A stretch of 64,000 nucleotides of DNA, from contig JAYEOW010000029.1 of NCBI GenBank assembly GCA_034723395.1, forward strand, positions 4,737 through 68,736. Reading direction: 5' to 3'. Positions 1-14,725 of this stretch are shown one piece after another. The notes under the pieces are model-generated. The model had not been told where the DNA came from. It saw only the letters and a list, made by a program, of their open reading frames with translations, and did no database searches. Source of the stretch: Candidatus Margulisiibacteriota bacterium. Its GTDB lineage: Bacteria; Margulisbacteria; WOR-1; O2-12-FULL-45-9. The translations under genes were made by a program, and so were the position numbers. Within the stretch, counting starts at the first letter, position 1. Every line of letters starts with the position of its first letter.

Positions 1-2191
1 GTAAAGTGTAATTTTTGGCATCATTGCCGGAAAAGATCTCAGTGGTGGCTAGTTTGGCAATTACCTGGTCGATATCGCTTCTGGCAAAGGCGGTATCGAC
101 TTTAAAAAGCTCGCCGATCTTAAAGCTGCCATCCAGTCCTACTACCGACTGGGAAATATCCTGGCTGGTAAACCCGGATGGGGGGACGTATTGATAGATG
201 ATCTGGAAGTTCTTGTTTGTATCAAGCGGATTATTGAATTCGATGTAGGGATTGTCCTGATGATAGTTGATAGAGTAGCCAGTATCCCCCGCATCACCCT
301 CGAAACTGGAATTGCGGGTGTAAGTTGTTATTTGGGACGACCCCTGGTCCCAGACCTGGACCGTTTCTGATCCGGGGACAAGGTTGCGGACATTTTTTAA
401 AAAGTAAGGTCCCTGAGTTCCGTCACCCATGCCCGAATATCTGCCGACAATACTTTTATAGTACGCATAGGTAACGACTATTTCGCTGGTGGCGCTGATC
501 GACGCGGGGTTAATAAATTTAATCGTGCCGGTATCAAACCCGTCGCTCGGATCACTGCGATCATTGCGGTAGGCGAGCTTTGCTTCGGGGGTTACGATGT
601 AATCGCCGGCATTATTCGGATCGGATTCGGTTTTTGGGAATACGTAATCTACTTCACGAGAAAGAGCCGCCCCGTCTAATTTTACAATCACATTATAATT
701 GGCTTCGCTGGTCGGGATAATTGGCTTGTTGGTAAGATACATTGTATAGTTATCATCAATAATATCTTGTCCGACAGCGCCATCGATTGCGGTGGCGCTG
801 TCGGCAACCGATCCGGCCTTGGCAGATTCTCGAAGATAAGTTACCCCTACCTTAAGTTCTTTTGGGTGTTTTGATTGGGGAATGGCTGGAAGGGCGGTCT
901 CCATATATTGGTACTTGGCTTTGATCAAAGATGTTGTACTGATGAAAATACCGAAGACAATTTCGCTGGTCTGGTAATTTATCGTATAATCAAGATCACG
1001 CACAAACAGTTTGCCGTCTACTTCGATCCGTTCGCTTTCCGGCACGATATGTTGGTGTTTAAATTGATATGGCCCGCGGCTTCCGATCCCCGGGATAGCT
1101 TCAGTTTCTGCCGAAGTTGTATGGTATTGATACTCAACAATTAATGGTTCTTCAGGCGAAGGGAGAAAGCGGGTAAGGAGCTTAATGTATCCCTCATTGT
1201 AGCGGATAAGATAATCTTCGTTTTTTCTGAGTTCCGTCCCCATAAAGGTGAGTTTTTCTCCGAATTGGACGACCGGAATATGGTTTAACTGATATTCCCC
1301 CGAGGCTTCAGCCTCTGATCGTTCTGATTCAACGGTCCCTGAGATGGGGAAGGTCTGGCGGTCGGACTTGATAATTGGCTGGGGCCTGGGAAGGGGCCTT
1401 CCAAACTCTTCGGGATCGATCGTAAAGCGGGATTGGAATCCGAAAAAATCCCTTTTCGAAAGGGCCGGGAAAAAGAGATCTAATATATTTGTGTATTCAT
1501 AACTGTATTTGAACTCATCCGCCGAGGTTAGAATTTCGTTGAATGTGACCTTTCCCTCAAAATAATCGATCGTATAATCAACATTGCGGGTAAGGGGATT
1601 GCCATTCAATTCTACTGTTTCTGACCCTTCAACGATAGATCCGTGCCCTAAATTATATGGTCCCTTGGTGTTGTTCCCCTTTTGCGAAGTTAAATTTTGG
1701 GTTTGGCTTTTAAGTTTTGCGGAAGGGACGGTGGTAATATCATACCAACTGTCTTTAGCTGTCAGCATAACACCATTTAAATACTTTGAAGTTGAGGCAA
1801 ATTCGTTCCCCGAAAAGTTCGCGGTAATATCGCCGAAGGTCAGCTCATTATTATAATATTTTACCCTGACATCAAAACGGTCCGGCACTTCGGGCTGCTG
1901 CTCAAGATCGTAACTAACCGATAAGTTTTCCGAAAGCTGGCCCAAGATCCTAAGCTGTAATCTCTCCTGCCATGGGCCGCCGGTAAAGGTTGGATAGTAT
2001 CCGCCCAGTTGAGTTAGCCCGCTGAAGTAGTTTTTGAGGGGAGAGACATCGGCTTTTTTATATTCCCACTTTTTGAAGCCGGAAATATCTAATTGAGGAT
2101 AGGTTCCCTGCTGAGCGAAGACCATTCCGCTCGACAGCAGCCATAACGAGGCTGCCAAAGCGATAAGCTTGGCGATGAATAACTTTTTCAT
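1..2191 (-). CDS. Large secreted/surface repeat protein. 5' end complete (ATG at 2189-2191, signal peptide [26 protein letters not shown]); 3' end runs off the window. Recurrent motif [DN]Y-x-I-x-Y-x-x-G-x-[IV]-x-F.
   Basis: Own minus-strand translation from 2191 downward. Absent from the ORF track because there is no in-window stop. Its start overlaps the fabF stop as TAATG. I could not verify the entire frame by eye. Confidence 0.45.
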   Translation of the reverse strand, partial: MKKLFIAKLIALAASLWLLSSGMVFAQQGTYPQLDISGFKKWEYKKADVSPLKNYFSGLTQLGGYYPTFTGGPWQERLQLRILGQLSENLSVSYDLEQQPEVPDRFDVRVKYYNNELTFGDITANFSGNEFASTSKYLNGVMLTAKDSWYDITTVPSAKLKSQTQNLTSQKGNNTKGPYNLGHGSIVEGSETVELNGNPLTRNVDYTIDYFEGKVTFNEILTSADEFKYSYEYTNILDLFFPALSKRDFFGFQSRFTIDPEEFGRPLPRPQPIIKSDRQTFPISGTVESERSEAEASGEYQLNHIPVVQFGEKLTFMGTELRKNEDYLIRYNEGYIKLLTRFLPSPEEPLIVEYQYHTTSAETEAIPGIGSRGPYQFKHQHIVPESERIEVDGKLFVRDLDYTINYQTSEIVFGIFISTTSLIKAKYQYMETALPAIPQSKHPKELKVGVTYLRESAKAGSVADSATAIDGAVGQDIIDDNYTMYLTNKPIIPTSEANYNVIVKLDGAALSREVDYVFPKTESDPNNAGDYIVTPEAKLAYRNDRSDPSDGFDTGTIKFINPASISATSEIVVTYAYYKSIVGRYSGMGDGTQGPYFLKNVRNLVPGSETVQVWDQGSSQITTYTRNSSFEGDAGDTGYSINYHQDNPYIEFNNPLDTNKNFQIIYQYVPPSGFTSQDISQSVVGLDGSFKIGELFKVDTAFARSDIDQVIAKLATTEIFSGNDAKNYTL

Positions 2192-3432
2192 TAAGCGTTA
2201 TATTTTTTAACGACCAATACCGCGTTGTGTCCGCCGAACCCGAAAGATTCCGATATGGCGGTATTTACCGGCGCTTTTCGCGCCTGGTTAGGCACATAAT
2301 CAAGGTCGCATTCCGGGTCCGGAACCTCATAATTGATGGTTGGTGGAATTATACCATTGTTTATGGTGAGGACGGTAGCGATCATTTCTACCGCTCCGGC
2401 GGCGCCTAAGAGATGGCCGACCATCGATTTGTTCGAGCTGACCGGTATTTTTTTAGCGCGTTCGCCAAAAACAGATTTTATGGCCACTGTTTCATATTTA
2501 TCATTAAGGACAGTAGATGTCCCATGCGCGTTGATGTAATCAACCTGTTCGGAAGTGGCCTTTGCGTCCCTAAGCGCGGCTTTAATAGCGCGTGCGGCTC
2601 CCTCGCCTCCGGGGGCGGGGGCGGTGATGTGATTTGCGTCTCCGCTCATCCCATAGCCCGCGAGTTCAGCATAGATCTTCGCTCCGCGGGATTTGGCGAA
2701 TTCGAGATCTTCAAGGACAACTATTCCGCTACCTTCCCCTATAACAAATCCGTTTCTCTCTTTTTCGAATGGGCGGCTGGCATGTGCAGGATCATCATTT
2801 CTTGTTGAGAGGGCGCGGGCAGCGCAAAAGCTCCCCACCCCGATAGGGGAGATCGAAGCCTCTGTGCCTCCAGCAACCATCGCTTTGGCGTCCCCCCGCT
2901 GAATTATCTTAAACGCGTTACCGATAGAATTTGTTCCGGTAGCGCACGCGGTTACCACGCATGAATTAGGCCCTTTTGCTCCGAGTTTAATAGATGTATA
3001 ACCAGCAGCCATGTCGGTGATCATGTAGGGGACAGTGAAGGGGCTAAGTTTTTCCACCCCTTTTTCCAGCAGGATTTTTATTTGTTTTTCGAGGAAGTTG
3101 ATCCCGCCTATTCCCGAACCGATAATAACGCCAACATCTGCGGCATTATCCGTAGTGATAGGCAGGTCGGAATCTTTTACCGCCATCATTGATGCGGCGA
3201 TGGCGAACTGGATAAAACGGACCAAACGGCGTGCTTCTTTTTTGTCCAGGAAATCCGCCGGGTTGAAATCTTTGACCTCGGCGGCGATCTGGGATGGATA
3301 AGTGCTGGCGTCAAAATGAGTTATCTTTCCGACCCCATTTTTTCCGGAAATTAGATTGTTCCAAAAAGCCTCTTTCCCAATGCCAATTGGGGAGACGAGC
3401 CCCATGCCTGTAACAACGACGCGATTCGTCAA
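2191..3432 (-). CDS. fabF: 3-oxoacyl-ACP synthase II (KAS II)
   Basis: 413 aa. N-terminus [17 protein letters not shown] and a thiolase-fold KAS layout; in a fab operon. Confidence 0.9.
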
Positions 3433-4388
3433 CCCTCTACCTCCTCGACTTCTTTTACCAACTCATTGATAATTTTAGCCGCGGGCCGGATACTCCGGTC
3501 CTTTATCTTCCAGACATTCTCTCCAGAAAAAACGACCCCGTTATCGATGTCCCCCTTCTGGGAGTTGATCAATGCCTGGATAATACAGTATTCAAGGGAG
3601 CAATTTTTAAGACAAAAATCGCAGCCAACCGGCTTGGGGGCTGTTTTGGTCAACAGCTTTTCGATGAAAGCAGTTTTTATCGCCCGGCCGGGCAGGCCGA
3701 CGGGTGACGGAATGATTACCACATCTTCTTTCCGGGCTGTTTGGTACCGTTGTTTATAGGAAAGGGCGGCATTACATTCTTCAGAAAGGACAAATTTGGT
3801 AGCGATCTGGACTCCACTCGCTCCAAGTTTGAGCATTTCTACAATGTCTTTACCATCAGTAATTCCTCCGGCGGCAATTACTGGCAGTTTGACCGCCTTT
3901 AATACTTCCGGAAGAATCTCTTTGATGGAACGATCGGTCCCCAAATGTCCGCCAGCTTCTTTTCCTTCGACCACGATTGCGGCGGCCCCACATCGCTCGG
4001 ATGTTTTGGCCAGCCGGGCCGAAGAGACGATTGGAACAACGGAGGTCTTGTTGTCCTGACCGAACTTAAATATATCTCGGGAAAAACCAGCCCCAACAAA
4101 TATGAGGTCGATTTTTTCCTGGACGGCGGTCTTAACAATTCCCCAGAATTCCCGCGCGGCGAACATAATGTTGATCCCAATAATACCGCCCATAGATTTG
4201 GATCGGGCGAGCCGGATTTCATTGGCCAGCTCGTCAAAAGACATGCCCGAAGCGCCAATTACCCCGACCCCCCCCGCAGCGGCAACCGCTCCGGCAAGCG
4301 AACCAGTGGAAATCCTTATTGCCATCCCCCCCTGGATTATGGGGATCCTGGCGACAAAATCAGCAATTTTCAATTCAGGCAACTTCAT
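3429..4388 (-). CDS. fabK: Enoyl-ACP reductase II (FMN-dependent, nitronate monooxygenase family)
   Basis: 319 aa. NMO/FabK-like glycine-rich motifs (GGMA, GVIGASG). Sits between acpP and fabF with a 4-nt overlap. Confidence 0.8.
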
Positions 4389-4392
4389 TTTA

Positions 4393-4638
4393 TTACTTCT
4401 TTGCGTGAGACATGATATAGGTTACCGTGTCCCCGATGGTTTTTATCTTTTCCGCGTCTTCATCCGGGATCTCGGTGCTAAAAGCCTCTTCCAGCGCCAT
4501 TACTAACTCAACTGTATCCAGCGAGTCAGCTCCCAGGTCGTCGACAAAAGAGGCTTCTCTCTTGGCCTCGGCCTCTGAAACTCCAAGCTGTTCAACTACA
4601 ACCTTTTTAACCTGTTCATAAACTTGATTCTCATCCAT
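4393..4638 (-). CDS. acpP: Acyl carrier protein
   Basis: [18 protein letters not shown] phosphopantetheine-attachment motif. Start chosen at ATG 4636-4638, preceded by SD GGGGGTG; the ORF track's longer GTG start (4647) is less likely. Confidence 0.9.
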
Positions 4639-4656
4639 TAAATTCACCCCCTTTTT

Positions 4657-4695: not shown

Positions 4696-5427
4696 TCATG
4701 TGTTCATCAACATCCCGCCGTTAACATTTATTACCTGGCCGGTAATATAGTCAGCAGCGCTGCTAGCTAGAAACAGGGCGGAAGCGGCAATGTCTTCCGG
4801 CAGTCCGAGCTTTCCAAGCGGAATATGTGCCAGCATATTTTGCTTAACATCTTCAGGAATCTTATCAGTCATGGCGGTTTTAATAAAGCCGGGGGCAATC
4901 GCGTTTACGGTTATTCCGCGGGCGGCAAACTCCCGGGCCAATGTCTTGGTTAGGCCGATAACTCCCGCTTTTGATGCGGAATAATTCGCCTGTCCCACGT
5001 TTCCCATTTCCCCAACGATCGAAGCAATGTTAATGATCTTTCCCGAACGCTGCCTCATCATCAATATGGCGGCTGCTTTAGAAACATTAAAAACGCCAGT
5101 CAGGTTAACATTGATCACCGTGTCCCAATCCTCTTTTTTCATTCTGATGAACAAAGTATCTTTAGTGATGCCGGCGTTATTAATCAGAATGTCGATCTTG
5201 CCCAGCTTCGCCTTGGCCTCTTTTATTCCGGCATCTACGTCTGCCGGGTCCACGACATTCATCTTTAGCGGAAGAGCATTCAATTCATTTGCTGTCCGGG
5301 TTGCCAACTCTAAATTAATGTCGGTTATAATTACTTTTGCTCCTGCCCTTGCAAAGGCGACGGCGATCTCCTTACCTATTCCCTGCGCGGCGCCAGTGAT
5401 CAGGACAACACTATCTTTTAGATGCAT
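4696..5427 (-). CDS. fabG: 3-oxoacyl-ACP reductase (SDR)
   Basis: 243 aa. TGAAQGIGKEIA Rossmann motif and YSASKAG catalytic motif. Confidence 0.9.
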   Translation of the reverse strand: MHLKDSVVLITGAAQGIGKEIAVAFARAGAKVIITDINLELATRTANELNALPLKMNVVDPADVDAGIKEAKAKLGKIDILINNAGITKDTLFIRMKKEDWDTVINVNLTGVFNVSKAAAILMMRQRSGKIINIASIVGEMGNVGQANYSASKAGVIGLTKTLAREFAARGITVNAIAPGFIKTAMTDKIPEDVKQNMLAHIPLGKLGLPEDIAASALFLASSAADYITGQVINVNGGMLMNT

Positions 5428-5429
5428 GT

Positions 5430-6311
5430 TTATACCTCCTGGAAACTTTTTACTTCAACGCTCCGGTCACATTTTTTGATCAAGCCGGCAAGGATATTTC
5501 CTGAACCGACTTCAATAAAACTTTTGGTACCGTCCGCGACCATTTTCTTTACCGAATCTTCCCACTTGACCGGATTGGTAACCTGTTTGTATAAAAGGTC
5601 CCTTATCTCGGGCCCATTAGTGGCATAATCGGCGGTGACATTTGCCACCACCGGGATCTGAGCGTCTTTAACCTCGATCTTATCGAGCTCAGCTTTAAGT
5701 TTATCGGCCGCCGGCTGCATTAGAGCGCAATGAAAGGGGGCGCTAACCTGTAAAGGGACTGTTCGCTTTGCTCCAGCCTCTTTACAAAGGGCCGAAGCCT
5801 TTTCTACCGCCTCTTTTTTCCCTGAGATCACGACCTGTCCGGGAGAGTTTAAGTTTGCAGCAGAAACAACTCCAAGCTCAGATGCCTTGATACAGCAATT
5901 ATCAACCTGATCTTTTGCTAGTCCTATAATTGCCGCCATGCTTCCCTCACCTAAGGGGACCGCTTCCTGCATAAATTTTCCACGCAAATTTACGATCCTG
6001 ACCGCATCCTCAAAGGTGATCGAACCGGCTGCCACTAAAGCTGAGTATTCACCAAGGCTGTGTCCGGCAACGGCTGAAGGGGAGGGGATCCCTTTATTTT
6101 TTAAGAACTCGTACGCGGCAACGCTAACGGTTAAGATCGCGGGTTGGGTAATCTCGGTCTTTTTTAATTTATCTCCCGGGCCTTCAAAGCAGAGCTGCTT
6201 AAGATCAAAGCCAAGTATCTGGTTAGCTCTGTCCAAATAGGCTTCAGCCAAGTTTTTGCCCATACCTATAACTTGTGACCCTTGTCCAGGGAACACAAAG
6301 GCGGTCTTCAT
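5430..6311 (-). CDS. fabD: Malonyl-CoA:ACP transacylase
   Basis: 293 aa. GHSLGEYSALVAAG active-site motif. Confidence 0.9.
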   Translation of the reverse strand: MKTAFVFPGQGSQVIGMGKNLAEAYLDRANQILGFDLKQLCFEGPGDKLKKTEITQPAILTVSVAAYEFLKNKGIPSPSAVAGHSLGEYSALVAAGSITFEDAVRIVNLRGKFMQEAVPLGEGSMAAIIGLAKDQVDNCCIKASELGVVSAANLNSPGQVVISGKKEAVEKASALCKEAGAKRTVPLQVSAPFHCALMQPAADKLKAELDKIEVKDAQIPVVANVTADYATNGPEIRDLLYKQVTNPVKWEDSVKKMVADGTKSFIEVGSGNILAGLIKKCDRSVEVKSFQEV

Positions 6312-6315
6312 GGTA

Positions 6316-7530
6316 CTATCCTCGTATTTCTTTTAATTTGTTGGTCAACATAGGGACAAACTGGAACAAGTCCCCAACAATACCGTAGGTAGCGACCTTA
6401 AAGATCGGGGCATCCGGATCTTTGTTGATCGCTATAATAATATCTGATGATTGCATTCCAACTAAGTGTTGGATCTTTCCCGAGATCCCGCAGGCGATAT
6501 AAAGTTTCGGGGCAACTGTTTTACCCGTTTGTCCAACTTGGTGGTGCGCAGAAATCCAGCCGGCGTCAACCGTGGCGCGGGATGCGCCTACCGCCCCGCC
6601 AAGCTCCTTTGCCAAGTCTTCGATCAGCTTAAAGTTTTTCGCTTCGCCGATCCCGCGGCCGCCGGAGACGATAATTTCAGCCTCAGTTAAATTTACCTTA
6701 ATTGATTCATCTTTAATGATCTCAATAAGTTTTACGATCAGGTCTTCCGGGCTAACCACTGGATTAAATTTGATAAGCTCACCTTTTCTCCCCTCTTCTT
6801 TGTCCAGTTTTCTGAAAACTTTTGGCCTAACGGTGGCCATTTGCGGACGGTTGTCGGGGGAAATAATAGTGGCCATAATATTGCCGCCAAAAGCGGGGCG
6901 GGTTTGTTGCAGTATTTTCTTTTCCGGGTCGATTGACAGCCCGGTACAATCGGCGGTCAATCCTGCGCCGATGCGGATCGCTAAACGAGCGGCCAGGTCT
7001 CTCCCCATGGTGGTTGCGCCAAGGAGAAAAACTTCTGGTTTATACTTGGTTAGTAGTTCAGCGATCGCGCGGGTATAAGGGAGTGTTTTATAATCTTTTA
7101 ATTCATCGTGGTGGAGGAGATATACTTTATCTGCTCCGTAAGCAAAAAGGTGGGAGACCTCTTCTTCTATATCTTCTCCCCCGCAAAGGACGGCTGAAAG
7201 ATCGGTCTTAAGATCGGTAGCCAGTTTTCTGCCTTCGCCCAAAAGTTCATATGCGACCGGTTGGATCTTTCCCTCCCTCTGTTCGGCAAATACCCAAACC
7301 CCTTTGTGGTGGCTAAGGTCGGTAGAACTCTCTTTTTCGATCTTGATCTCGATCGCACCGAACTTACAAGCATCTACGCAAGCGCCGCAAAGAGTACATT
7401 TATCAAGGTCGATAATCGCCAGTTTTCTGGGATCCCCTTCTCTCGACTGCATTTCGATCGCGCCGAAAGGGCAAGCCTTAACGCATAAAGTACAGCCGCT
7501 ACATTTATCAGCGAAAACCTGGATGCTCAT
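6316..7530 (-). CDS. etfA: Electron transfer flavoprotein alpha subunit with N-terminal 2x[4Fe-4S] ferredoxin domain (FixB-like)
   Basis: Two CxxCxxCxxxCP motifs (CSGCTLCVKACP, CTLCGACVDACK), followed by an ETF-alpha FAD-binding C-terminal region. Confidence 0.85.
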   Translation of the reverse strand: MSIQVFADKCSGCTLCVKACPFGAIEMQSREGDPRKLAIIDLDKCTLCGACVDACKFGAIEIKIEKESSTDLSHHKGVWVFAEQREGKIQPVAYELLGEGRKLATDLKTDLSAVLCGGEDIEEEVSHLFAYGADKVYLLHHDELKDYKTLPYTRAIAELLTKYKPEVFLLGATTMGRDLAARLAIRIGAGLTADCTGLSIDPEKKILQQTRPAFGGNIMATIISPDNRPQMATVRPKVFRKLDKEEGRKGELIKFNPVVSPEDLIVKLIEIIKDESIKVNLTEAEIIVSGGRGIGEAKNFKLIEDLAKELGGAVGASRATVDAGWISAHHQVGQTGKTVAPKLYIACGISGKIQHLVGMQSSDIIIAINKDPDAPIFKVATYGIVGDLFQFVPMLTNKLKEIRG

Positions 7531-8312
7531 CAGATTATCTTCCTCTCTTTGATCTTAGAAACTAAGCTGGAGACAACGTCCGCTGGTTCTCCCTGCAGGA
7601 CCTCTCCTCCGCCTTTGGGAGGAGGGGTAAAGATCTTAACTACCTGGGTTGGAGAACCTTTTAATCCCAGGTTTTTTTCATCAGCGTTGAGTTCCGCAGC
7701 CTTTAACGTTTTAATTTCGGCCTTTTTAGCGCGCATCATTCCCTTGAGCGATGGCATGCGCGGTTCGTTGATCTGCTTTACTACGGTGATTACCGCAGGA
7801 AATGGGGTTTCTACGACTTCATTAGCCTCCTCAAGAAGGCGTTCAACTTTTGCATTGTCACCTTCAGCTTCGATCTTAACCGCAAAAGTAACCGATGGAA
7901 TATTTAACCATTCGGCGATCCCCGGTCCGACTTGAGCGGTATCCCCATCGATCGCTTGCTTACCACAAAGGATCAAGTTGTAGTCGCCGATCTTTTTTAT
8001 CGCCTGGGCGAGGGTGTAAGAGGTTGCCCAAGTGTCGGACCCGGCAAAAGCGCGGTCAGATATAAGATAAACTTCGTCCGCACCCATAGCAATGGTAGTT
8101 TTAAGGGCTTCTGCCGCCTGTGGGGGGCCCATAGTGATCACGGTAACTTTCCCTCCATGCTTTTCCTTTAGCTTTAGGGCGGCTTCCAGGGCATTTTCAT
8201 CAAAAGGGTTAATGATGGACGGGACGCCCTCCCGGATCAGGGTATTGGTTTCAGGATCGATCCTGACCTCTGTTGTTTCCGGGACTTGTTTTATGCAAAC
8301 TAGGATCTTCAT
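7530..8312 (-). CDS. etfB: Electron transfer flavoprotein beta subunit
   Basis: MKILVCIKQVPETTEVRID ETF-beta N-terminus. Shares a boundary base with etfA and overlaps the acd gene by 4 nt. Confidence 0.85.
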   Translation of the reverse strand: MKILVCIKQVPETTEVRIDPETNTLIREGVPSIINPFDENALEAALKLKEKHGGKVTVITMGPPQAAEALKTTIAMGADEVYLISDRAFAGSDTWATSYTLAQAIKKIGDYNLILCGKQAIDGDTAQVGPGIAEWLNIPSVTFAVKIEAEGDNAKVERLLEEANEVVETPFPAVITVVKQINEPRMPSLKGMMRAKKAEIKTLKAAELNADEKNLGLKGSPTQVVKIFTPPPKGGGEVLQGEPADVVSSLVSKIKERKII

Positions 8313-9472
8313 TTCTTTTTCTTAATGTTTTCCTTGATAAGTTTTAGGGCGATTTCGTTTCTTTGTATTTGGTTGGTCCCTTCGTAGATCTGGGTGATCT
8401 TGGCGTCCCGCATCATTTTCTCAACCGGGTATTCGCGCATATATCCGTAACCGCCAAGGATTTGAACAGCATCGGTGGTGACCTTCATAGCTGTGTCTGA
8501 TGCAAAAAGCTTTGACATGGAGGAATATAAAGTATAATCCTTCGATTTGGCATCGATCATTCTTGCTGTGGCATAGACCAGGGATCGAGCTGCTTCCAAC
8601 CGGGTCGCCATGTCCGCTAAAATATGCTGGACGGCCTGAAAAGAAATGATCGGTTTTCCAAATTGTACGCGCTGGCGGGCATAACTGACTGCCTCATCAA
8701 TCGCTCCCTGGGCAATTCCGAGCGCTTGTGCCCCGATTCCCGGACGGGTTATATCGAGGGTTTTCATGGCGACGATAAATCCCATCCCTTCGCGGGCGAG
8801 CAACTGGCTTTTATGTACCTTACAATCCTGGAAAACAAGTTCGCGGGTCGCGGAACAGCGGATCCCCATCTTTTTCTCTTTTTTGGCGAAGGTAAAGCCA
8901 GGGGTCCCTTTTTCGATGATAAAGGCCGACGCCCCGCGGCTCCCCTTGTTTTTATTGGTCATGGCGATCAATGTGTAAACCTCGGCCTCTCCGCCGTTGG
9001 TGATCCATTGCTTGGTCCCGTTTATGACATAGTAATCGCCGTCCTTAACCGCGGTAGTTTCTACCCCGGCGGCGTCTGATCCGGCATTTGCTTCGGTAAG
9101 TCCGAAAGCTGCCAGTTTCTTGCCGGCGGCAATATCGGGCATATATTTTAATTTCTGTTCGTGAGAGCCGAAAAGCAGGATTGGGGCGGATCCGAGGGCG
9201 GAGGCGGCAAAGGTGACGCCTACTCCTCCGCAGGCGCGGCTGATTTCTTCGGTAGCCAGGCAGAAATTAAATATTTTCTGGCCCATTCCGCCGTACTCTT
9301 CCGGGATGTAGAGGCCGCAGAGATCGGCGTCGGCTAAAGCTTTAATTATATCCCAAGGGAACTCTTCTTTTTCGTCCAGTTCCGCGCGTACCGGAACAAT
9401 CTTTTCAACCGCGACCTTACGTGCCAGCTCCCTGATCATCTGTTCTTCTTCAGTTAGCATGTAATCGAGCAT
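8309..9472 (-). CDS. Acyl-CoA dehydrogenase (short-chain/butyryl-CoA dehydrogenase-like)
   Basis: 387 aa with three-domain ACAD layout and C-terminal motifs QILGGYGYMREYPVEKMMRDAKITQIYEGTNQIQR. Confidence 0.85.
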   Translation of the reverse strand: MLDYMLTEEEQMIRELARKVAVEKIVPVRAELDEKEEFPWDIIKALADADLCGLYIPEEYGGMGQKIFNFCLATEEISRACGGVGVTFAASALGSAPILLFGSHEQKLKYMPDIAAGKKLAAFGLTEANAGSDAAGVETTAVKDGDYYVINGTKQWITNGGEAEVYTLIAMTNKNKGSRGASAFIIEKGTPGFTFAKKEKKMGIRCSATRELVFQDCKVHKSQLLAREGMGFIVAMKTLDITRPGIGAQALGIAQGAIDEAVSYARQRVQFGKPIISFQAVQHILADMATRLEAARSLVYATARMIDAKSKDYTLYSSMSKLFASDTAMKVTTDAVQILGGYGYMREYPVEKMMRDAKITQIYEGTNQIQRNEIALKLIKENIKKKK

Positions 9473-9475: not shown

Positions 9476-10444
9476 TTATCCTTCCCACCTAATAATATTG
9501 GCTCCGCAGGTCAGGCCGGCGCCAAACCCGGAAAGGGCCACAACATTGCCCTTTTTTATCTTACCATCAGACAATGCTTCATCCAGTGCCAGGGGGATCG
9601 AAGCGGCCGAGGTATTACCGTATCTGTGAAGATTAACATAAACTTTTTCTTTTGGCAATCCCATTTTCTTGCTAACATGGTCAATAATCCGCGAGTTTGC
9701 CTGGTGGGGGATTAGCAGGTCGATATCGCTTACTTTTAAGTTTGCTTTCTCAAGCGCTCCGTACAGGGACTCCTCTAATACCCTTACCGCAAACTTAAAA
9801 ACTTCTTTACCGTCCATGGTTATAAAACGGCCATTCTGGTTTTCCGGATCGCGCGAGCCTCCTCCCGGCATGACCAAATGATGTCCGAGATGTCCCTCTG
9901 CTTTTAGCCAGCTGGCCAGAACCCCGGATCCGTCATCTTTTGCTGTTAATACTGTCGCTCCCGCGCCATCTCCAAACAGGATGCAGGTCCCACGATCTTT
10001 CCAGTTAAGGTACTTTGTTAGCGTATCTGCGCCGACCACCAGTATGTTTTTATAATTGCCGTTTTCAATAAAGGTTGATCCGACAGTTAGGGCGTAATTA
10101 AATCCCGAACAAGCGGCAGACACATCGAATGCCGCCGCTTTGGTTGCTTTTAAGCGGTTTTGAAGGATACAACCAACGGAGGGAAAGAGATAGTCAGGAG
10201 AAGTTGTTCCGACAATAATCAGGTCGAGCTCTTCGGCCGGGAAATTCGCCTTTTGCAGCGCTCTTTCAGCGGCGATAAAGGCAAGATCCGAAGTTGATGT
10301 CCCGTAGTCCGAAATCCTTCTTTCCTGGATCCCGGTACGGGTCCGTATCCAATCATCGGACGTTTCGACTATTTTACCGAGATCATCATTGTTTATAACC
10401 TTTGGCGGGGCACAGGAGCCGACGCCGATTATTGAAGCCCTCAT
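9476..10444 (-). CDS. fabH: 3-oxoacyl-ACP synthase III
   Basis: 322 aa with the FabH architecture and active-site region AAFDVSAACSGF. Confidence 0.9.
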   Translation of the reverse strand: MRASIIGVGSCAPPKVINNDDLGKIVETSDDWIRTRTGIQERRISDYGTSTSDLAFIAAERALQKANFPAEELDLIIVGTTSPDYLFPSVGCILQNRLKATKAAAFDVSAACSGFNYALTVGSTFIENGNYKNILVVGADTLTKYLNWKDRGTCILFGDGAGATVLTAKDDGSGVLASWLKAEGHLGHHLVMPGGGSRDPENQNGRFITMDGKEVFKFAVRVLEESLYGALEKANLKVSDIDLLIPHQANSRIIDHVSKKMGLPKEKVYVNLHRYGNTSAASIPLALDEALSDGKIKKGNVVALSGFGAGLTCGANIIRWEG

Positions 10445-11433
10445 AAACTTTCGCCTACTTTCGATATCGCGCCAACCATGTTGTTTTCGACCGCTTCAAA
10501 AGATTCGCGGATCGCGTTCTTGATCGCCCGCGCTTTGGAGCGGCCATGAGCCTTGTAAACTACAGCCGATATGCCGAGCAGTGGAGCGCCGCCGTATTCA
10601 TCGTAGGTGATTTTCTTTCGAAGCCTAAGGAGCGCCGGTAAAAGGAGGGCTAACCCGACCTTATTTAGAATTCCCCTGGAAAGCTCTCCCTTAAGAAGGT
10701 TAAATATCACCCCGGCAATACTTTCGCCAAATTTTAAGATCAAGTTGCCGACAAATCCGTCGCAGACGATGACATCCGCTTTGCCGTTAAATATTTCTTT
10801 GGACTCGACGTTACCGATAAAATTAAGAGGCAATTTTTCGAGCAGCAGCCAGGTTTCGCGGGTAAGCTCGTTCCCTTTTTCTTTTTCCTCGCCGATATTC
10901 AAAAGCCCGACCTCCGGGCTTTTGATATGCAGAACATGCTGGGCGTACAGACTTCCCATCATGGCAAACTGTTCCAGGTGTTTTGGCTTGCAATCGACAT
11001 TTGCCCCCATGTCCAGGAGGAGGACCTTTCCGGAGGGGAGAGGGAATTCGGTAGCAATGGCGGGACGTTCGATCCCTTTTATTCTTCCGAGCTTAAAAAG
11101 GGAGGCGGCCATCAGGGCGCCTGTGCTTCCCGCAGAAACGACCGCGTCCGCCTTTCCTTCTTTTACCAGCGATACGGCCACATTTACCGATGCCCCCTTC
11201 TTTTGTTTGACTGCCTGGGCGGGAGCCTCGTCCATATCGATCACTTCGGTGGAGTTTACAATGCCAAGCTTTTCCTTGTCTTTGTAGCAAGAAAGCTCTT
11301 TTTCAACGCGGGATTGGTTTCCGACTAAAATAATTTCGGCGTCCGGGAGCTCACGGCTGGCAAGGACGGCGCCTTTAATAATCTCGGAAGGAGCGTGGTC
11401 CCCCCCCATTGCATCGAGGGCGATCCTAGTCAT
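10441..11433 (-). CDS. plsX: Phosphate acyltransferase
   Basis: MTRIALDAMGGDHAP N-terminus; conserved rpmF-plsX-fabH synteny. Confidence 0.9.
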   Translation of the reverse strand: MTRIALDAMGGDHAPSEIIKGAVLASRELPDAEIILVGNQSRVEKELSCYKDKEKLGIVNSTEVIDMDEAPAQAVKQKKGASVNVAVSLVKEGKADAVVSAGSTGALMAASLFKLGRIKGIERPAIATEFPLPSGKVLLLDMGANVDCKPKHLEQFAMMGSLYAQHVLHIKSPEVGLLNIGEEKEKGNELTRETWLLLEKLPLNFIGNVESKEIFNGKADVIVCDGFVGNLILKFGESIAGVIFNLLKGELSRGILNKVGLALLLPALLRLRKKITYDEYGGAPLLGISAVVYKAHGRSKARAIKNAIRESFEAVENNMVGAISKVGESL

Positions 11434-11640
11434 TTATTCTTTTCCCTTCTTGCCTTTTTTCTCTTTTTTATTTTTTATGGTACGGCCTTTGTAGGTGCCG
11501 CAGGAGGGGCAGGCGTGGTGGGGGAGAGAGGGCGCGCCGCATTGCGGGCACTTCCCGTGAAGGGTTGCGGAAAGGCGATAATTACTGGACCGTCGCTTCC
11601 CCTGTCTAACATTTGAATGTCTTTTTTTGGGCATTGGCAT
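11434..11640 (-). CDS. rpmF: 50S ribosomal protein L32
   Basis: 68 aa. MPMPKKRHSNVRQGKRR with a CxxC...CxxC zinc ribbon. Confidence 0.85.
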   Translation of the reverse strand: MPMPKKRHSNVRQGKRRSSNYRLSATLHGKCPQCGAPSLPHHACPSCGTYKGRTIKNKKEKKGKKGKE

Positions 11641-11643: not shown

Positions 11644-12102
11644 TTATTTTTCTCCTTTAATTCCTTTGCAGTCCGGGCTGCACAAAGTTTTTATTGGTAT
11701 CGATAATAAAAGGTCCTGCCGGATCATTTCACTAAGATCGATCGTATTGTCTTCTTCGATCGGGTAGACAAAATCCTCCGGACGGAGCTCCGTGCTCCCG
11801 CTGCTTTTCGAGATGAAAGGCTCTTTGGAAAATTCCTCTTCCAGATCGATCGCAAGCGGGACCTTATATTTTTTCAGGCATCTTGAGCATTCAAGCTCGG
11901 CTTCGGTTTCGGCAGTGCCGGTTAGATAGACCGAATCCCCGACATTTACCAGATGAAGCTGGACCTTGACCGGTTTTGAAAGGTTGAGATCGTCATCGGG
12001 GAAACTGATTTTGTCAGTTTCTTCGATATCCACCTCGTTCCCAGCCTTTTGCAAGACTTCCGTAAGGTCAATTTTCATCCTTAAAGCCTTTCGGGACAAC
12101 AA
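11644..12102 (-). CDS. DUF177/YceD-family protein (23S rRNA accumulation protein)
   Basis: 152 aa, acidic, C-terminal CSRC...CSPDC pair; in the conserved position upstream of rpmF. Confidence 0.65.
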   Translation of the reverse strand: MLSRKALRMKIDLTEVLQKAGNEVDIEETDKISFPDDDLNLSKPVKVQLHLVNVGDSVYLTGTAETEAELECSRCLKKYKVPLAIDLEEEFSKEPFISKSSGSTELRPEDFVYPIEEDNTIDLSEMIRQDLLLSIPIKTLCSPDCKGIKGEK

Positions 12103-12134
12103 GGGTTAATTATACTGAAGTTTGGGGGGGGTTG

Positions 12135-13013
12135 TCAATGTGTCGCCCGGGGATGGGCCGAATCGTAGACCTCCTTAAGCCGCTCTTTAGTAATATGCGT
12201 GTAAACCTGAGTGGTCGAAAGTGAAACGTGGCCGAGAAGCTCTTGAACTACCCGAAGGTCGGCTCCGCCTGACAAAAGATGGGTTGCAAATGAATGTCGA
12301 AGAGTATGTGGAGTGACTTTCTTAGAGATCCCCGCTTTTTTTGTGTAGTAAACGATCATTCTCTCGACGGAACGGGTGGTCAATCTCCCTCCACGGTGGT
12401 TTATAAAAAGGGCTGGGTTTTTATTGCCGGAAAGAAGCCCTGTTCTTCCTTCTTTAATATAATTCGATAGGGCTTTTTTTGCGTGAGAGCCGAAAAGGAC
12501 GATCCGCTCTTTTGACCCTTTCCCTAAAACCTTGATTTCCCCCTCATCAAAGTCGATATCATTGAGGTTTATGCGAATGATCTCGGTAACGCGCAGGCCG
12601 GTCCCGTAGATTAATTCTAAAATTGTTTTATCGCGCAAGCCTTTTGCCTTTCTTAGGTCGGGAGCCGTAAACAGCGAATTAATCTCTTCCGGATAGAGGA
12701 AGTTTGGAAGTTTTTTTGGGAGCTTAGGAGTTAACAGATTTTCAAACGGGTTCTGTTTGATGATTTTTTCCCGGGAGAGGAAGCGAAAGAAAGATCTGGC
12801 GGATGAAAGTTTCCGCGCAATTGATCGGCGGGAAAACTTTCTTTTCTCGAGCGCCGAGAGATATTCTCTGGCAGATGCCCGGTTAACCTTTTTGATGTCG
12901 ACAAGTTTAGCCAATGATCTTAAGTCGCGCTGATAGTTGCTTAATGTGTGAGGGGAGTAGTTTCGTTCGGTTTTTAAGTATTTAATGAATTGATCGATCA
13001 GATCAGAGGCCAT
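12135..13013 (-). CDS. Tyrosine recombinase, XerC/XerD type
   Basis: 292 aa. Catalytic-region motifs HTLRHSFATHLL and GHVSLSTTQVYTH. XerC versus XerD cannot be distinguished from this. Confidence 0.85.
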   Translation of the reverse strand: MASDLIDQFIKYLKTERNYSPHTLSNYQRDLRSLAKLVDIKKVNRASAREYLSALEKRKFSRRSIARKLSSARSFFRFLSREKIIKQNPFENLLTPKLPKKLPNFLYPEEINSLFTAPDLRKAKGLRDKTILELIYGTGLRVTEIIRINLNDIDFDEGEIKVLGKGSKERIVLFGSHAKKALSNYIKEGRTGLLSGNKNPALFINHRGGRLTTRSVERMIVYYTKKAGISKKVTPHTLRHSFATHLLSGGADLRVVQELLGHVSLSTTQVYTHITKERLKEVYDSAHPRATH

Positions 13014-13428
13014 ACTTGGTTCTTTTTTCAGCGGTCAGCGGGAGATAATCGTTCCCTTCTTTAACTAGCCTTACCGGTTCTTCTGCGGGGCGGGTATCAA
13101 TGTGGATGTAGTCTGCTTTAGGGTAGAAAACCATTCCTCTAAGCTCGGGGATCGTTTCGCAATATTTAAAAAGGTCTTGTGTCGAAATACCGTCAATCAT
13201 AATATGGGCTGCTTTACCCATGGTATGGAAACTTCTTTTCGGCTTGTTCAGTTTTTCATAATAATCGTCGCACCAGTAAGCAGTTGCGATTTTTACCCGT
13301 TTTCGAAAATGACCGCCGATCTGTTCGAGCGCGCCGACTAATCCGAGATGAACTCGATATGCCCCTTTACACTGCGGACAGCGGCAGGCAAAATCTTTGT
13401 TGCTAAAATGTTCGCTTAGATTACCCAT
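13003..13428 (-). CDS. Peptidase M15A (YcbK/DUF882)-like protein with a variant metal site
   Basis: FSNKDFACRCPQC...SFHTMGKAAHI resembles the M15A pattern FxSxEFxCxCG...SxHxxGxAxDi, with H in place of the terminal D. Confidence 0.4.
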   Translation of the reverse strand: MGNLSEHFSNKDFACRCPQCKGAYRVHLGLVGALEQIGGHFRKRVKIATAYWCDDYYEKLNKPKRSFHTMGKAAHIMIDGISTQDLFKYCETIPELRGMVFYPKADYIHIDTRPAEEPVRLVKEGNDYLPLTAEKRTKYGL

Positions 13429-13534: not shown

Positions 13535-14725
13535 ATGGAGAAACGACATCTTTTTACATCAGAATCGGTTACCGAAGGGCATCCCGATAAAGTTTGCGAC
13601 CAGGTTTCGGACGCCATCTTAGACGCGATCGTCGAGAAGGACCCCCCCGGACGCGTTGCGGTTGAAACGTTAGTTACCAATGGATTAGCAATTGTGGCAG
13701 GGGAAGTTACTACCGGTTGTTATGTTGATATCCCCAAAATAGTTAGAAAAACGATCAAAGATATCGGATATACCCGCGCTAAGTACGGGTTCGATTATGA
13801 AACCTGCGGAGTGATGGTGGCAATTAAGGAACAGTCCAAAGATATTGCCCGCGGGGTGGATAAGGCGCTGGAGATCAGGGGTGGAGAAGTAATAAAAGAA
13901 GACCTGGAGGGACTAGGCGCTGGAGACCAGGGACTAATGTTTGGTTATGCCTGTGATGAGACAGAAGAGTTGATGCCGCTTCCGATCGTTCTGTCGCATA
14001 AGCTTTCACAGAAATTAGCCGATGTACGAAAGACCGGCGAATTAGATTACTTAAGGCCGGACGGAAAATCCCAGGTAACAATTGAATACGATAAAGACAA
14101 ACCGATCAGGGTCCACACTGCGCTAATCGCCGCACAGCATTCACCCGAAGTAAAAATGGACAGGATAAGGGAAGATATTTTGGAAAGAGTGATCCTGCCG
14201 ATCCTTCCTGAAGAAATGGTCGATGATAAGATCAAGCATTATGTAAATCCTACCGGCCGGTTTGTGATCGGCGGACCGCAGGGGGATAGCGGGGTGACCG
14301 GCAGAAAAATTATTGTCGATACTTATGGCGGATACTCCCGTCACGGCGGCGGAGCTTTTTCCGGCAAGGACCCGACAAAAGTTGACCGTTCCGGGACTTA
14401 TGCGGCGCGCTGGGTCGCTAAAAATATTGTTGCATCCGGATTAGCTAAACGCTGTGAAGTTCAGCTTGCTTATGCGATCGGGATTGCCCGGCCGCTATCG
14501 ATCATGGTCGATACTTTTGGGTCGGGAAAGATCGCGGACGGCAAGATCGCAAAATTGGTAGATGAAATATTTGATCTCCGTCCGGGAATGATCATCAAAG
14601 AGCTTGACCTTAGGCGTCCGCTCTATTTGCAGGTTGCTGCTTATGGGCATTTTGGCAGGCTCGACCTGGACCTTCCTTGGGAGAATACCGATAAGGCTAA
14701 AGAGCTAAAGAAAAAAGCTAGTTAA
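13535..14725 (+). CDS. metK: S-adenosylmethionine synthetase
   Basis: N-terminus [22 protein letters not shown] and motif [16 protein letters not shown]. Confidence 0.95.

What the first reader, a model, noticed from the sequence alone, without database searches (positions are those of the whole stretch)
6316..9472. Acyl-CoA dehydrogenase plus EtfB and ferredoxin-fused EtfA embedded and translationally coupled inside the FASII operon (fabH | acd-etfB-etfA | fabD)
Seen in sequence: the order is yceD-rpmF-plsX-fabH-acd-etfB-etfA-fabD-fabG-acpP-fabK-fabF, with 4-nt and 1-nt overlaps at every junction of the acd-etfBA insert. EtfA carries an N-terminal 2x[4Fe-4S] domain (two CxxCxxCxxxCP motifs). 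Established knowledge: Bcd-EtfAB complexes are the archetypal flavin-based electron-bifurcating enoyl-CoA reductases, and FixB-like Fd-fused Etf-alpha occurs in low-potential electron transfer. Neither normally belongs to a FASII operon, which here already encodes FabK and lacks any fabZ/fabA/fabM. Inference: the module may act on acyl-ACP or enoyl-ACP. It could be an Fd/NADH-linked enoyl-ACP reduction route, or an acyl-ACP alpha,beta-dehydrogenase feeding anaerobic unsaturated fatty-acid synthesis in an organism without FabA/FabM/desaturases.
Basis: partly seen in the sequence, partly recalled or inferred. Interest (0 to 1): 0.7.

Follow-up and report, generated by a model that had tools for sequence, protein, structure and literature searches.

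The report
Bifurcating-type acyl dehydrogenase inside fatty-acid operon
A butyryl-CoA-dehydrogenase-like enzyme and its ferredoxin-reducing electron-transfer flavoprotein sit inside the fatty-acid synthesis operon of this uncultured anaerobe and of anaerobes from at least eight other phyla; the likeliest, still untested, reading is that they perform the last reduction of each fatty-acid elongation cycle and recover energy from it.

Summary
On the minus strand, one tightly packed unit runs yceD-rpmF-plsX-fabH-acd-etfB-etfA-fabD-fabG-acpP-NMO-fabF behind a perfect sigma-70-like promoter. The host is a Candidatus Margulisiibacteriota MAG.

The ETF is the electron-bifurcating type. EtfB carries the DGDTAQ motif. 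EtfA has an N-terminal 2x[4Fe-4S] domain and matches CarE of caffeyl-CoA reductase over its full length. The ACAD is 54% identical to C. difficile Bcd and keeps the ETF-docking residues.

The arrangement is not a local oddity. ACAD orthologues at 67-82% identity lie beside fab genes in 47 of 80 genomes, in several operon layouts.

A published gene table for Margulis/Saganbacteria shows no FabI, thiolase or 3-hydroxybutyryl-CoA dehydrogenase where this module is present. I found no paper noting the fab linkage.

It scores below the FabK cutoff and has an invariant four-Cys motif aligning with the [4Fe-4S] ligands of FabX.

Best reading (about 0.5): an NADH- and ferredoxin-coupled enoyl-ACP reductase. 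Use of ACP rather than CoA thioesters is untested. The NMO protein could be the reductase in this lineage.

The parts
12109..12138 (-). Sigma-70-like promoter TTGACA-18-TATAAT. The -35 box overlaps the stop codon of the upstream xerD-like gene.
   Evidence: 12 of 12 consensus matches
11644..12102 (-). yceD (PF02620). The true start codon may lie downstream of the TTG at 12102.
11434..11640 (-). rpmF (ribosomal protein L32)
   Evidence: orthologue annotated PF01783 in L083
10441..11433 (-). plsX phosphate acyltransferase; 4-nt overlap with fabH
   Evidence: TIGR00182: 392 bits against a cutoff of 243
9476..10444 (-). fabH, beta-ketoacyl-ACP synthase III
   Evidence: TIGR00747: 408 bits against a cutoff of 292
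8309..9472 (-). Acyl-CoA-dehydrogenase-family flavoprotein, 387 aa, Bcd-like. It has the catalytic IYEGT Glu and is the proposed enoyl-thioester reductase subunit.
7530..8312 (-). EtfB, 260 aa, bifurcating type (DGDTAQ zipper motif); 4-nt overlap with acd
   Evidence: motif statistics from PMC8958531
6316..7530 (-). EtfA, 404 aa, with an N-terminal 2x[4Fe-4S] ferredoxin domain (about aa 1-70, nt 7321-7530), the GLTADC motif and an ETF_alpha FAD domain; 1-nt overlap with etfB
5430..6311 (-). fabD, malonyl-CoA:ACP transacylase
   Evidence: TIGR00128: 380 bits against a cutoff of 261
4696..5427 (-). fabG, 3-oxoacyl-ACP reductase
   Evidence: TIGR01830: 323 bits against a cutoff of 298
4393..4647 (-). 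acpP, acyl carrier protein
3429..4388 (-). NMO-family FMN protein of the FabK/FabX family with invariant Cys256/259/263/268. It is a putative [4Fe-4S] protein and not a canonical FabK.
2191..3432 (-). fabF, beta-ketoacyl-ACP synthase II; 4-nt overlap with the NMO gene
   Evidence: TIGR03150: 639 bits against a cutoff of 494
1..2192 (-). 5' part of a large ORF with a signal-peptide-like start. Its ATG overlaps the fabF stop (TAATG), and it may be co-transcribed. Relatives are 1351-1412 aa with no Pfam hit.

Best explanation
The ACAD and EtfBA form a Bcd/EtfAB- or CarCDE-type flavin-based electron-bifurcating complex that has been recruited to type II fatty-acid synthesis as the enoyl-thioester (enoyl-ACP) reductase.

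Proposed mechanism:
1. NADH reduces the bifurcating FAD in EtfB.
2. One electron goes via the swinging EtfA FAD to the ACAD FAD. After two rounds this reduces trans-2-enoyl-ACP to acyl-ACP.
3. The other electron leaves through the two [4Fe-4S] clusters of the EtfA N-terminal domain to ferredoxin.
4. Net reaction: 2 NADH + enoyl-ACP + 2 Fd(ox) -> 2 NAD+ + acyl-ACP + 2 Fd(red).
5. The reduced ferredoxin can feed Rnf or hydrogenases, so part of the roughly 60 kJ/mol normally dissipated by FabI-type reductases would be conserved.

Shown here: the homology, the cofactor motifs, the docking residues, the operon structure and the cross-phylum linkage to fab genes.

Inferred: the reductive direction, ACP as the thioester carrier, the chain-length range and the ferredoxin coupling.

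The co-encoded FabK/FabX-like Fe-S flavoprotein would then be either a FabX-like enzyme of unsaturated fatty-acid synthesis or a second reductase.
For: 1. One promoter and tight or overlapping junctions join the module to fabH and fabD.
2. ACAD orthologues at 67-82% identity were fetched from 80 genomes. 47 have fab genes on the same strand in the flank, and 37 have acd + etf + fab. The labels include Nitrospirota, Omnitrophota, Actinomycetota, Thermodesulfobacteriota/Syntrophales, Planctomycetia, UBP2, Edwardsbacteria and Margulis/Saganbacteria.
3. At least four different layouts occur: fabH-acd-etfBA-fabD; fabF-rnc-acd-etfBA; pmbA-acd-etfBA-fabD; and divergent from the fab operon.
4. The ACAD is the best-conserved enzyme of these operons. 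In L039, for example, acd is 69% identical against 47-59% for the other Fab enzymes.
5. EtfB matches bifurcating CarD, C. difficile EtfB and A. fermentans EtfB at 251-283 bits, against 121 bits for human ETF-beta. 40 of 40 linked EtfBs have DGDT[AG]Q, the bifurcating-type zipper.
6. EtfA matches CarE over its full length including the Fd domain (450 bits, 54% identity). 38 of 39 linked EtfAs have two Cys motifs.
7. The C. difficile salt-bridge residues are conserved: Bcd E198, E210 and D345, and EtfA R243.
8. The published KO table shows FabI absent in 5 of 5 Riflemargulis and 26 of 26 Saganbacteria genomes, which have Bcd/Etf in 5 of 5 and 23 of 26 respectively. FabI is present and Bcd/Etf absent in 3 of 3 aerobic Marinamargulis genomes. 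Hbd is absent in all 31 anaerobic genomes and thiolase in 29 of them, so there is no route to crotonyl-CoA.
9. There are no butyrate or beta-oxidation genes in the 64-kb window.
10. From established knowledge: the slot between fabH/acpP and fabD is where fabK sits in streptococcal and clostridial fab operons.
Against: - Every characterised close homologue (Bcd, CarC, AcrC) uses CoA thioesters. Nothing here shows ACP binding, and no ACAD-ACP fusion was found.
- The Margulis/Saganbacteria operons also encode a FabK/FabX-family protein that could itself be the reductase. Its homologues exist in Saganbacteria although the KO table calls FabK absent, so that table under-calls it.
- Whole-genome absence of FabI, FabL, FabV and FabK could not be checked in the other phyla.
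- About 10 clade members, mostly Bacillota, lie in non-fab contexts, and some Nitrospirota and Syntrophales copies lack adjacent etf genes.
- The authors of the Margulisbacteria study judged this Etf non-bifurcating. The motif evidence here contradicts that.
Confidence: 0.5

Rival explanations
1. It is an ordinary Bcd-EtfAB crotonyl-CoA (short-chain enoyl-CoA) reductase used for redox balance or energy conservation. It merely rides in the constitutively expressed fab operon.
For: The closest solved homologues are C. difficile and A. fermentans Bcd (434 and 406 bits). The best NCBIfam hit is the acryloyl-CoA reductase subunits. Some clade members sit outside fab contexts. The Margulisbacteria paper annotates it as a putative Bcd/EtfAB.
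Against: Thiolase and Hbd are missing from the Riflemargulis and Saganbacteria genomes that carry it. None of crt, hbd or thl lies in the window or in the 80 loci. The fab linkage recurs in many phyla and in several layouts, which chance co-location does not explain. The clade is separated from the canonical Bcds by a long branch and lacks their one-residue helix-E insertion.
Confidence: 0.15
2. The ACAD works in the oxidative direction as an acyl-ACP alpha,beta-dehydrogenase, a FabX-like 'backtracking' step that starts anaerobic unsaturated or otherwise modified fatty-acid synthesis. EtfBA carries the electrons away, by confurcation with reduced ferredoxin to NAD+.
For: ACADs normally run oxidatively, and ACAD-family acyl-carrier-protein dehydrogenases exist (MbtN, PigA/RedW, AnaB). 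No FabA or FabM is seen in the window. Bifurcating ETFs are reversible (Ldh-EtfAB; listed).
Against: trans-2-enoyl-ACP is already made in every cycle by the dehydratase, so a dehydrogenase adds nothing unless paired with an isomerase. The operon's FabX-like NMO protein is the better candidate for that role. Scores against the acyl-carrier-protein dehydrogenase families are far below their cutoffs: 80 of 700, 263 of 650 and 241 of 500. Most phyla carry acd-etfBA without the NMO gene.
Confidence: 0.12
3. The Fe-S NMO (FabK/FabX-like) protein is the true enoyl-ACP reductase. The Etf module, with the ACAD as a second outlet, mainly supplies it with low-potential electrons through the EtfA ferredoxin domain.
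For: [quoted passage not shown] It is strictly co-operonic with acd-etfBA in the Margulis/Saganbacteria MAGs examined.
Against: Nitrospirota, Omnitrophota, Thermodesulfobacteriota and other loci keep acd-etfBA in fab operons without any NMO gene (0 of 37 Nitrospirota loci). This model leaves the ACAD without a function of its own. L081 has the NMO gene but an EtfA without the Fd domain.
Confidence: 0.1

Closest known systems
Bcd-EtfAB, the electron-bifurcating butyryl-CoA dehydrogenase complex (C. difficile 5OL2; A. fermentans 4L1F/4KPU)
   Same: It shares the three-subunit ACAD + EtfB + EtfA make-up. The ACAD is 54% identical and EtfB 52% identical. The catalytic Glu, the bifurcating-FAD motifs and the ETF-ACAD salt-bridge residues are conserved.
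   Different: It is not in a crt-bcd-etfBA-hbd butyrate operon but inside FASII operons. EtfA carries an extra 2x[4Fe-4S] domain. The ACAD clade lacks the Bcd/SCAD helix-E insertion and is MCAD-like at several motifs. The host lineage lacks thiolase and Hbd.
CarCDE caffeyl-CoA reductase of Acetobacterium woodii (6FAH)
   Same: This is the best match for both Etf subunits: CarD at 283 bits and CarE at 450 bits over its full length, including the N-terminal two-cluster ferredoxin domain. It is a known NADH + Fd bifurcating enoyl-CoA reductase with 3 FAD + 2 [4Fe-4S] (PMC5861303).
   Different: The ACAD is closer to Bcd (434 bits) than to CarC (318 bits). The genomic context is fatty-acid synthesis, not caffeate respiration.
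Known enoyl-ACP reductases: FabI/FabL/FabV (SDR) and FabK (FMN TIM barrel)
   Same: The proposed reaction is the same, and so is the operon slot: fabK lies between fabH/acpP and fabD in streptococci and clostridia (my own knowledge). The module appears where FabI is absent.
   Different: The fold is unrelated (ACAD plus ETF). It has three subunits, three FAD and two Fe-S clusters. The predicted stoichiometry is 2 NADH per reduction with ferredoxin co-reduction.
FabX of Helicobacter pylori (7E1Q), a decanoyl-ACP dehydrogenase/isomerase. This comparison concerns the operon's NMO gene.
   Same: Both are NMO-family FMN proteins. Identity is 39%. His148 corresponds to H182 and Arg132 to R164. Four Cys align with the [4Fe-4S] ligands C300, C304, C308 and C320.
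   Different: The loop between Cys3 and Cys4 is shorter and three FabX insertions are missing. Identity is below the 50% that the FabX authors used. The fold matches FabK equally well. The host is an anaerobe, whereas FabX needs O2 in vitro.
Acryloyl-CoA reductase AcrABC of Clostridium propionicum
   Same: It is the best NCBIfam equivalog for all three subunits.
   Different: All three scores are below the curated cutoffs: 453 of 640, 270 of 475 and 388 of 600.

Membership tests
Bifurcating ACAD-EtfAB complexes (Bcd-EtfAB / CarCDE type) | ACAD subunit with N, middle and C domains and the catalytic Glu (YEGT) | tested here: met
   Pfam PF02771, PF02770 and PF00441. IYEGT is present in the window and in 72 of 74 orthologues.
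Bifurcating ACAD-EtfAB complexes (Bcd-EtfAB / CarCDE type) | EtfB with a bifurcating-FAD site (DGDTAQ zipper, against DDDxNQ in canonical AMP-binding ETFs) | tested here: met
   AIDGDTAQVGP is present in the window EtfB. 40 of 40 linked EtfBs have the motif. Motif frequencies come from PMC8958531.
Bifurcating ACAD-EtfAB complexes (Bcd-EtfAB / CarCDE type) | EtfA domain I motif (GATxxGRDL...GLTADC) and ETF_alpha FAD domain | tested here: met
   39 of 39 linked EtfAs
Bifurcating ACAD-EtfAB complexes (Bcd-EtfAB / CarCDE type) | Conserved ETF-ACAD docking salt bridge (EtfA R243; Bcd E198 and D345) | tested here: met
   R318, E199 and E347 in the window proteins
Bifurcating ACAD-EtfAB complexes (Bcd-EtfAB / CarCDE type) | Stoichiometric NADH-dependent co-reduction of ferredoxin and an enoyl thioester | not testable with these tools
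   Needs anaerobic enzymology.
Canonical Bcd of butyrate fermentation | Co-occurrence or co-location with thiolase, Hbd and crotonase (bcs operon) | tested here: not met
   None lies in the window or in the 80 loci. K00626 (thiolase) is absent in 29 and K00074 (Hbd) in all 31 of the Riflemargulis/Saganbacteria genomes.
Acryloyl-CoA reductase AcrABC (NCBIfam equivalogs) | Score above the curated cutoff | tested here: not met
   453 of 640, 270 of 475 and 388 of 600
ACAD-family acyl/aminoacyl-carrier-protein dehydrogenases (MbtN, RedW/PigA) | Score above the curated cutoff | tested here: not met
   80 of 700, 263 of 650 and 241 of 500
Enoyl-ACP reductase (functional class) | Reduces trans-2-enoyl-ACP; rescues ENR-deficient strains | not testable with these tools
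   Only context evidence is available: fab-operon embedding in 47 of 80 genomes and absence of FabI in the host lineage.
Enoyl-ACP reductase (functional class) | Absence of other ENRs in genomes that carry the module | tested here: inconclusive
   FabI is absent in 31 of 31 Riflemargulis/Saganbacteria genomes. However, a FabK/FabX-like gene is present. FabL and FabV are not in the table. Other phyla could not be checked.
Canonical (group 1) ETF of beta-oxidation | AMP site motif DDDxNQ; no Fe-S domain | tested here: not met
FabK (TIGR03151), for the NMO gene | Score above the curated cutoff; NAD(P)H-binding region without a Cys cluster | tested here: not met
   199 of 453 bits. A four-Cys insertion is absent from T. 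maritima FabK.
FabX, for the NMO gene | Four Cys ligands of the [4Fe-4S] cluster, the catalytic His and the ACP-binding Arg | tested here: met
   C256, C259, C263, C268, H148 and R132. The Cys are invariant in 25 homologues. The first Cys is offset by one residue.
FabX, for the NMO gene | More than 50% identity to H. pylori FabX (the authors' homologue criterion); dehydrogenase/isomerase activity | tested here: not met
   39% identity. Activity is not testable.

The most novel reading that the evidence does not exclude
This would be a previously unrecognised class of enoyl-ACP reductase, built from an acyl-CoA-dehydrogenase-fold subunit and a ferredoxin-domain-bearing bifurcating ETF. It would make every FASII elongation cycle reduce ferredoxin. 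Membrane-lipid synthesis would then be partly energy-conserving in strict anaerobes across many phyla, including Margulis/Saganbacteria, Thermodesulfovibrionia, Syntrophales, Omnitrophota and anaerobic Actinomycetota. It would also explain the 'orphan' Bcd/EtfAB and the missing FabI in these genomes.
Probability: 0.4. Interest if true: 0.9.

Novelty: new variant of a known kind. Interest (0 to 1): 0.75.

Why it matters
If the module is the enoyl-ACP reductase, four things follow.
1. It adds a structurally unrelated class to the known reductases (FabI/L/V, FabK, MDR type), which are antibiotic targets and annotation markers.
2. It would be the first flavin-based electron bifurcation assigned to a core biosynthetic pathway rather than to catabolism. 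The 2018 list of characterised bifurcating complexes contains none (PMC5861303).
3. It would change energy and redox budgets for slow-growing subsurface anaerobes. It would also bear on lipid hydrogen-isotope interpretation, because the hydride source differs.
4. It would correct 'Bcd/butyrate' calls in many MAG reconstructions.

Even if the substrate proves to be a CoA thioester, the strict fab linkage across phyla needs an explanation.

Tried and rejected
- **Literature.** Nine full-text searches found no paper linking ACAD/Etf to fab operons or proposing a bifurcating ENR. The Margulisbacteria paper mentions the genes only as a putative, probably non-bifurcating Bcd/EtfAB.
- **Gene fusions.** A search of 1.84 billion representatives looked for Rosetta-stone fusions of the ACAD with ACP or Fab domains. 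It found only tandem ACADs and ACAD fused to ETF_alpha (with or without rubredoxin) or to glyoxalase domains. This was uninformative.
- **Sequence cues for ACP versus CoA.** The clade gains nine conserved basic positions and loses five relative to the Bcds. Net charge is about -1, against -3 and -15. This is suggestive at most and was not used as evidence.
- **Chain-length cues.** The positions equivalent to MCAD Q95 and E99 are small residues in both the clade and the Bcds. This is weak.
- **Fold search of the NMO model.** It could not separate FabK from FabX (TM-score 0.82-0.87 for both). The Cys loop has low confidence, as expected without the cluster.
- **Intervening genes in variant operons.** They are unrelated (HD-GYP, membrane proteins, acetyl-CoA synthetase, dCMP deaminase, NrdR), with no hidden dehydratase or reductase.
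- **FabZ, FabA and FabI searches.** tblastn against the window and the 80 loci gave only FabG cross-hits.
- **Recent horizontal insertion.** Rejected because GC content is uniform and the order is conserved in relatives.

Full report
**What is there.**

The window carries a compact minus-strand unit:

| Gene | Coordinates |
|---|---|
| yceD | 11644-12102 |
| rpmF | 11434-11640 |
| plsX | 10441-11433 |
| fabH | 9476-10444 |
| acyl-CoA-dehydrogenase-family gene (ACAD) | 8309-9472 |
| etfB | 7530-8312 |
| etfA | 6316-7530 |
| fabD | 5430-6311 |
| fabG | 4696-5427 |
| acpP | 4393-4647 |
| NMO-family gene | 3429-4388 |
| fabF | 2191-3432 |

- plsX, fabH, fabD, fabG, acpP and fabF all exceed their NCBIfam cutoffs.
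- The internal junctions overlap: acd/etfB by ATGA and etfB/etfA by TGATG. The outer junctions, fabH/acd and etfA/fabD, are 3- and 4-nt gaps.
- A perfect TTGACA-18-TATAAT site lies just upstream of yceD at 12138-12109. No convincing minus-strand terminator interrupts the unit.
- GC content is even across the region.

**Organism.**

The ACAD is 100% identical to a protein of a Candidatus Margulisiibacteriota MAG on a 150,827-bp contig. The rest of the window holds housekeeping genes: metK, xerD-like, clpB, radA, rnc, ruvAC, fumarase, mdh, sigma-54 and pckG. It holds no beta-oxidation or butyrate-pathway genes.

**The Etf is of the bifurcating kind.**

- EtfB scores 283, 263 and 251 bits against CarD, C. 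difficile EtfB and A. fermentans EtfB. All three belong to electron-bifurcating complexes. It scores 121 bits against human ETF-beta.
- EtfB carries AIDGDTAQVGP. In a published survey, DGDTAQ is the consensus of 216 bifurcating ETFs, and DDDxNQ that of 449 canonical AMP-binding ETFs (PMC8958531).
- EtfA aligns over its full length (residues 1-402) with CarE of the caffeyl-CoA reductase complex (450 bits, 54% identity). The match includes the N-terminal domain with two four-Cys motifs, and EtfA has GLTADC.
- CarCDE is a characterised NADH + ferredoxin bifurcating enoyl-CoA reductase with 3 FAD and 2 [4Fe-4S]. The Fd domain is thought to adapt the complex to its electron acceptor (PMC5861303).
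- The statement in the Margulisbacteria paper that this Etf has an AMP site and is unlikely to bifurcate is not borne out by these motifs.

**The ACAD.**

- It has all three ACAD domains and the catalytic IYEGT glutamate.
- Its best solved relatives are the Bcd proteins of C. difficile (434 bits, 54% identity) and A. fermentans (406 bits). CarC scores 318 bits.
- It stays below the cutoff of every NCBIfam equivalog, including acryloyl-CoA reductase and the acyl/prolyl-carrier-protein dehydrogenases.
- The residues that form the EtfA-Bcd salt bridges in the C. difficile complex are conserved: Bcd E198, E210 and D345, and EtfA R243. The ACAD is therefore very probably the redox partner of this Etf.

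**The arrangement is widespread.**

- A scan of one genome per species returned 582 relatives. The best 80 (67-82% identity) were fetched with flanks.
- Mapping the window's twelve proteins onto them shows fab genes on the same strand in 47 of 80 loci, and acd + etf + fab together in 37.
- MAG labels with the linkage include Nitrospirota/Thermodesulfovibrionales, Omnitrophota, Actinomycetota, Thermodesulfobacteriota/Syntrophales, Planctomycetia, UBP2, Edwardsbacteria and Margulis/Saganbacteria.
- Several layouts occur:
  - plsX-fabH-acd-etfB-etfA-fabD-fabG-acpP-fabF
  - ...fabF-rnc-acd-(x)-etfB-etfA
  - hpt-queD-pmbA-acd-etfB-etfA-fabD
  - plsX-(fabH)-acd-fabG-acpP-fabF without etf
  - a divergent pair
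- Repeated linkage in different layouts is the classical signature of functional coupling.
- All 74 orthologues form one tight clade, separated by a long branch from the two reference Bcds.
- The ACAD is the most conserved enzyme of these operons.
- All 40 linked EtfBs have the bifurcating zipper motif, and 38 of 39 EtfAs have the two-cluster domain.
- About ten clade members lie in unrelated contexts. An example is a Bacillota locus next to Nfn-like, FolD and corrinoid-protein genes.

**Phyletic evidence from published tables.**

Supplementary Data 2 and 3 of Matheus Carnevali et al. 2019 list KO presence in 46 genomes.

| Group (genomes) | FabI | Bcd | EtfB | Hbd | Thiolase |
|---|---|---|---|---|---|
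| Riflemargulisbacteria (5) | absent 5/5 | present 5/5 | present 5/5 | absent 5/5 | absent 5/5 |
| Saganbacteria (26) | absent 26/26 | present 23/26 | present 25/26 | absent 26/26 | absent 24/26 |
| Marinamargulisbacteria, aerobic (3) | present 3/3 | absent 3/3 | absent 3/3 | absent 3/3 | present 3/3 |

- The module is therefore present where the common reductase is missing and where no route to crotonyl-CoA is annotated.
- accABCD, fabD, fabH, fabF, fabG, plsX and plsY are present in nearly all of these genomes.

There are three caveats.
- The table also calls FabK absent in Saganbacteria. Yet close homologues (75-83% identity) of this window's NMO protein come from Saganbacteria MAGs, some on contigs of the same length as those carrying the ACAD. 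The KO call misses that protein.
- FabL and FabV are not in the table.
- FabZ is also called absent. That probably reflects annotation, such as an LpxC-FabZ fusion, but I could not test it.

**The 'FabK'.**

- The NMO-family protein reaches only 199 of the 453 bits required for FabK.
- It is 35% identical to T. maritima FabK and 39% to H. pylori FabX.
- Its predicted fold (pLDDT 88) matches both equally, with TM-scores of 0.82-0.87.
- It has Cys256, 259, 263 and 268. These are invariant in 25 homologues and in the fab-operon copies of Actinomycetota.
- The Cys align with the FabX [4Fe-4S] ligands C300, C304, C308 and C320. [quoted passage not shown]
- His148 and Arg132 match FabX H182 and R164.
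- The protein is therefore a FabK/FabX-family Fe-S flavoprotein of unknown direction. It may be a FabX-like enzyme of unsaturated fatty-acid synthesis or a ferredoxin-dependent reductase.
- It accompanies acd-etfBA in Margulis/Saganbacteria and some Actinomycetota operons, but in none of the 37 Nitrospirota loci or the other phyla.

**Interpretation.**

The only step of FASII that matches ACAD chemistry is the enoyl/acyl interconversion. Bifurcating ETFs are the known device that drives ACADs in the reductive direction with NADH. Four further points go with this:
- the cross-phylum fab linkage;
- the missing FabI and missing crotonyl-CoA pathway in the host lineage;
- the slot between fabH and fabD, where fabK sits in streptococcal and clostridial operons (my own knowledge);
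- the high sequence conservation.

The best-supported model is therefore an NADH- and ferredoxin-coupled enoyl-ACP reductase (confidence about 0.5). Homology, cofactor motifs, docking residues, operon structure and synteny are shown. Direction, ACP specificity, chain-length range and ferredoxin coupling are inferred.

The rivals, with confidence:
- an ordinary crotonyl-CoA reductase riding in the operon (0.15);
- an oxidative acyl-ACP dehydrogenase for unsaturated lipids (0.12);
- an electron-supply role for the Fe-S NMO reductase (0.10).

**Novelty.**

The proteins are clear members of the Bcd/CarC-EtfAB kind, so the finding is a new variant rather than a new kind. The proposed role would nevertheless be a new class of enoyl-ACP reductase and the first bifurcating complex placed in a core biosynthetic pathway. 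I found no paper that notes the fab linkage. Surveys of bifurcating enzymes would count these loci as Bcd-EtfAB.

**Limits.**

- No tool here can show ACP binding.
- Whole-genome absence of other reductases outside the Margulis/Saganbacteria table could not be checked.
- MAG taxon labels are as deposited.

Noticed in passing
It has an invariant CxxCxxxCxxxxC motif (C256, C259, C263, C268) that aligns with the [4Fe-4S] ligands of H. pylori FabX. Close homologues occur in Saganbacteria MAGs although a published KO table calls FabK absent there.
   Followed up: yes
window 1-2192 (-); L081 7355-11593; L083 12198-16253: A very large ORF with a signal-peptide-like N-terminus starts on the fabF stop codon (TAATG). 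It always follows fabF in related MAGs (1351-1412 aa) and has no Pfam hit.
   Followed up: partly
window 14718-19675 (-): An 893-aa ORF has no Pfam or PADLOC hit. It overlaps by one base a 758-aa SMC/AAA ATPase that hits PADLOC mad3 (216 bits) and LmuB (81 bits). This may be a two-gene defence-like module.
   Followed up: partly
published tables for relatives (PMC6349859 Supp Data 3); window and L001-L080: FabZ (K02372) is called absent in nearly all Margulis/Saganbacteria genomes, and no FabZ- or FabA-like ORF is in the window or in any fetched locus. The dehydratase of this FASII is unidentified here. An LpxC-FabZ fusion was not tested.
   Followed up: partly
L021, L030, L040, L041 (Syntrophales/Thermodesulfobacteriota): The ACAD sits inside the fab operon (plsX-[fabH]-acd-fabG-acpP-fabF) with neither etfBA nor fabD nearby.
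   Followed up: no
L081 2243-3277: A MAG with the same operon order as the window has a 344-aa EtfA lacking the N-terminal ferredoxin domain, so the Fe-S domain is dispensable in some lineages.
   Followed up: no
L006, L010, L022, L023 and other Nitrospirota loci: There is a recurrent hpt-queD-pmbA(TldD/PmbA)-acd context. It is followed by etfB-etfA-fabD in some genomes and not in others.
   Followed up: partly
window 12135-13428 (-) and 13535-14725 (+): A xerD-like recombinase, an M15 peptidase and metK lie upstream of the operon and are syntenic in a related MAG (L083). The recombinase is therefore not a sign of a mobile element. Its stop codon lies inside the -35 box of the operon promoter.
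   Followed up: yes
P0253, P0272, P0273, P0297 (representative library): Distant relatives of the ACAD are fused to an ETF_alpha FAD domain, one of them also to rubredoxin. Others are tandem double ACADs of about 770 aa.
   Followed up: partly
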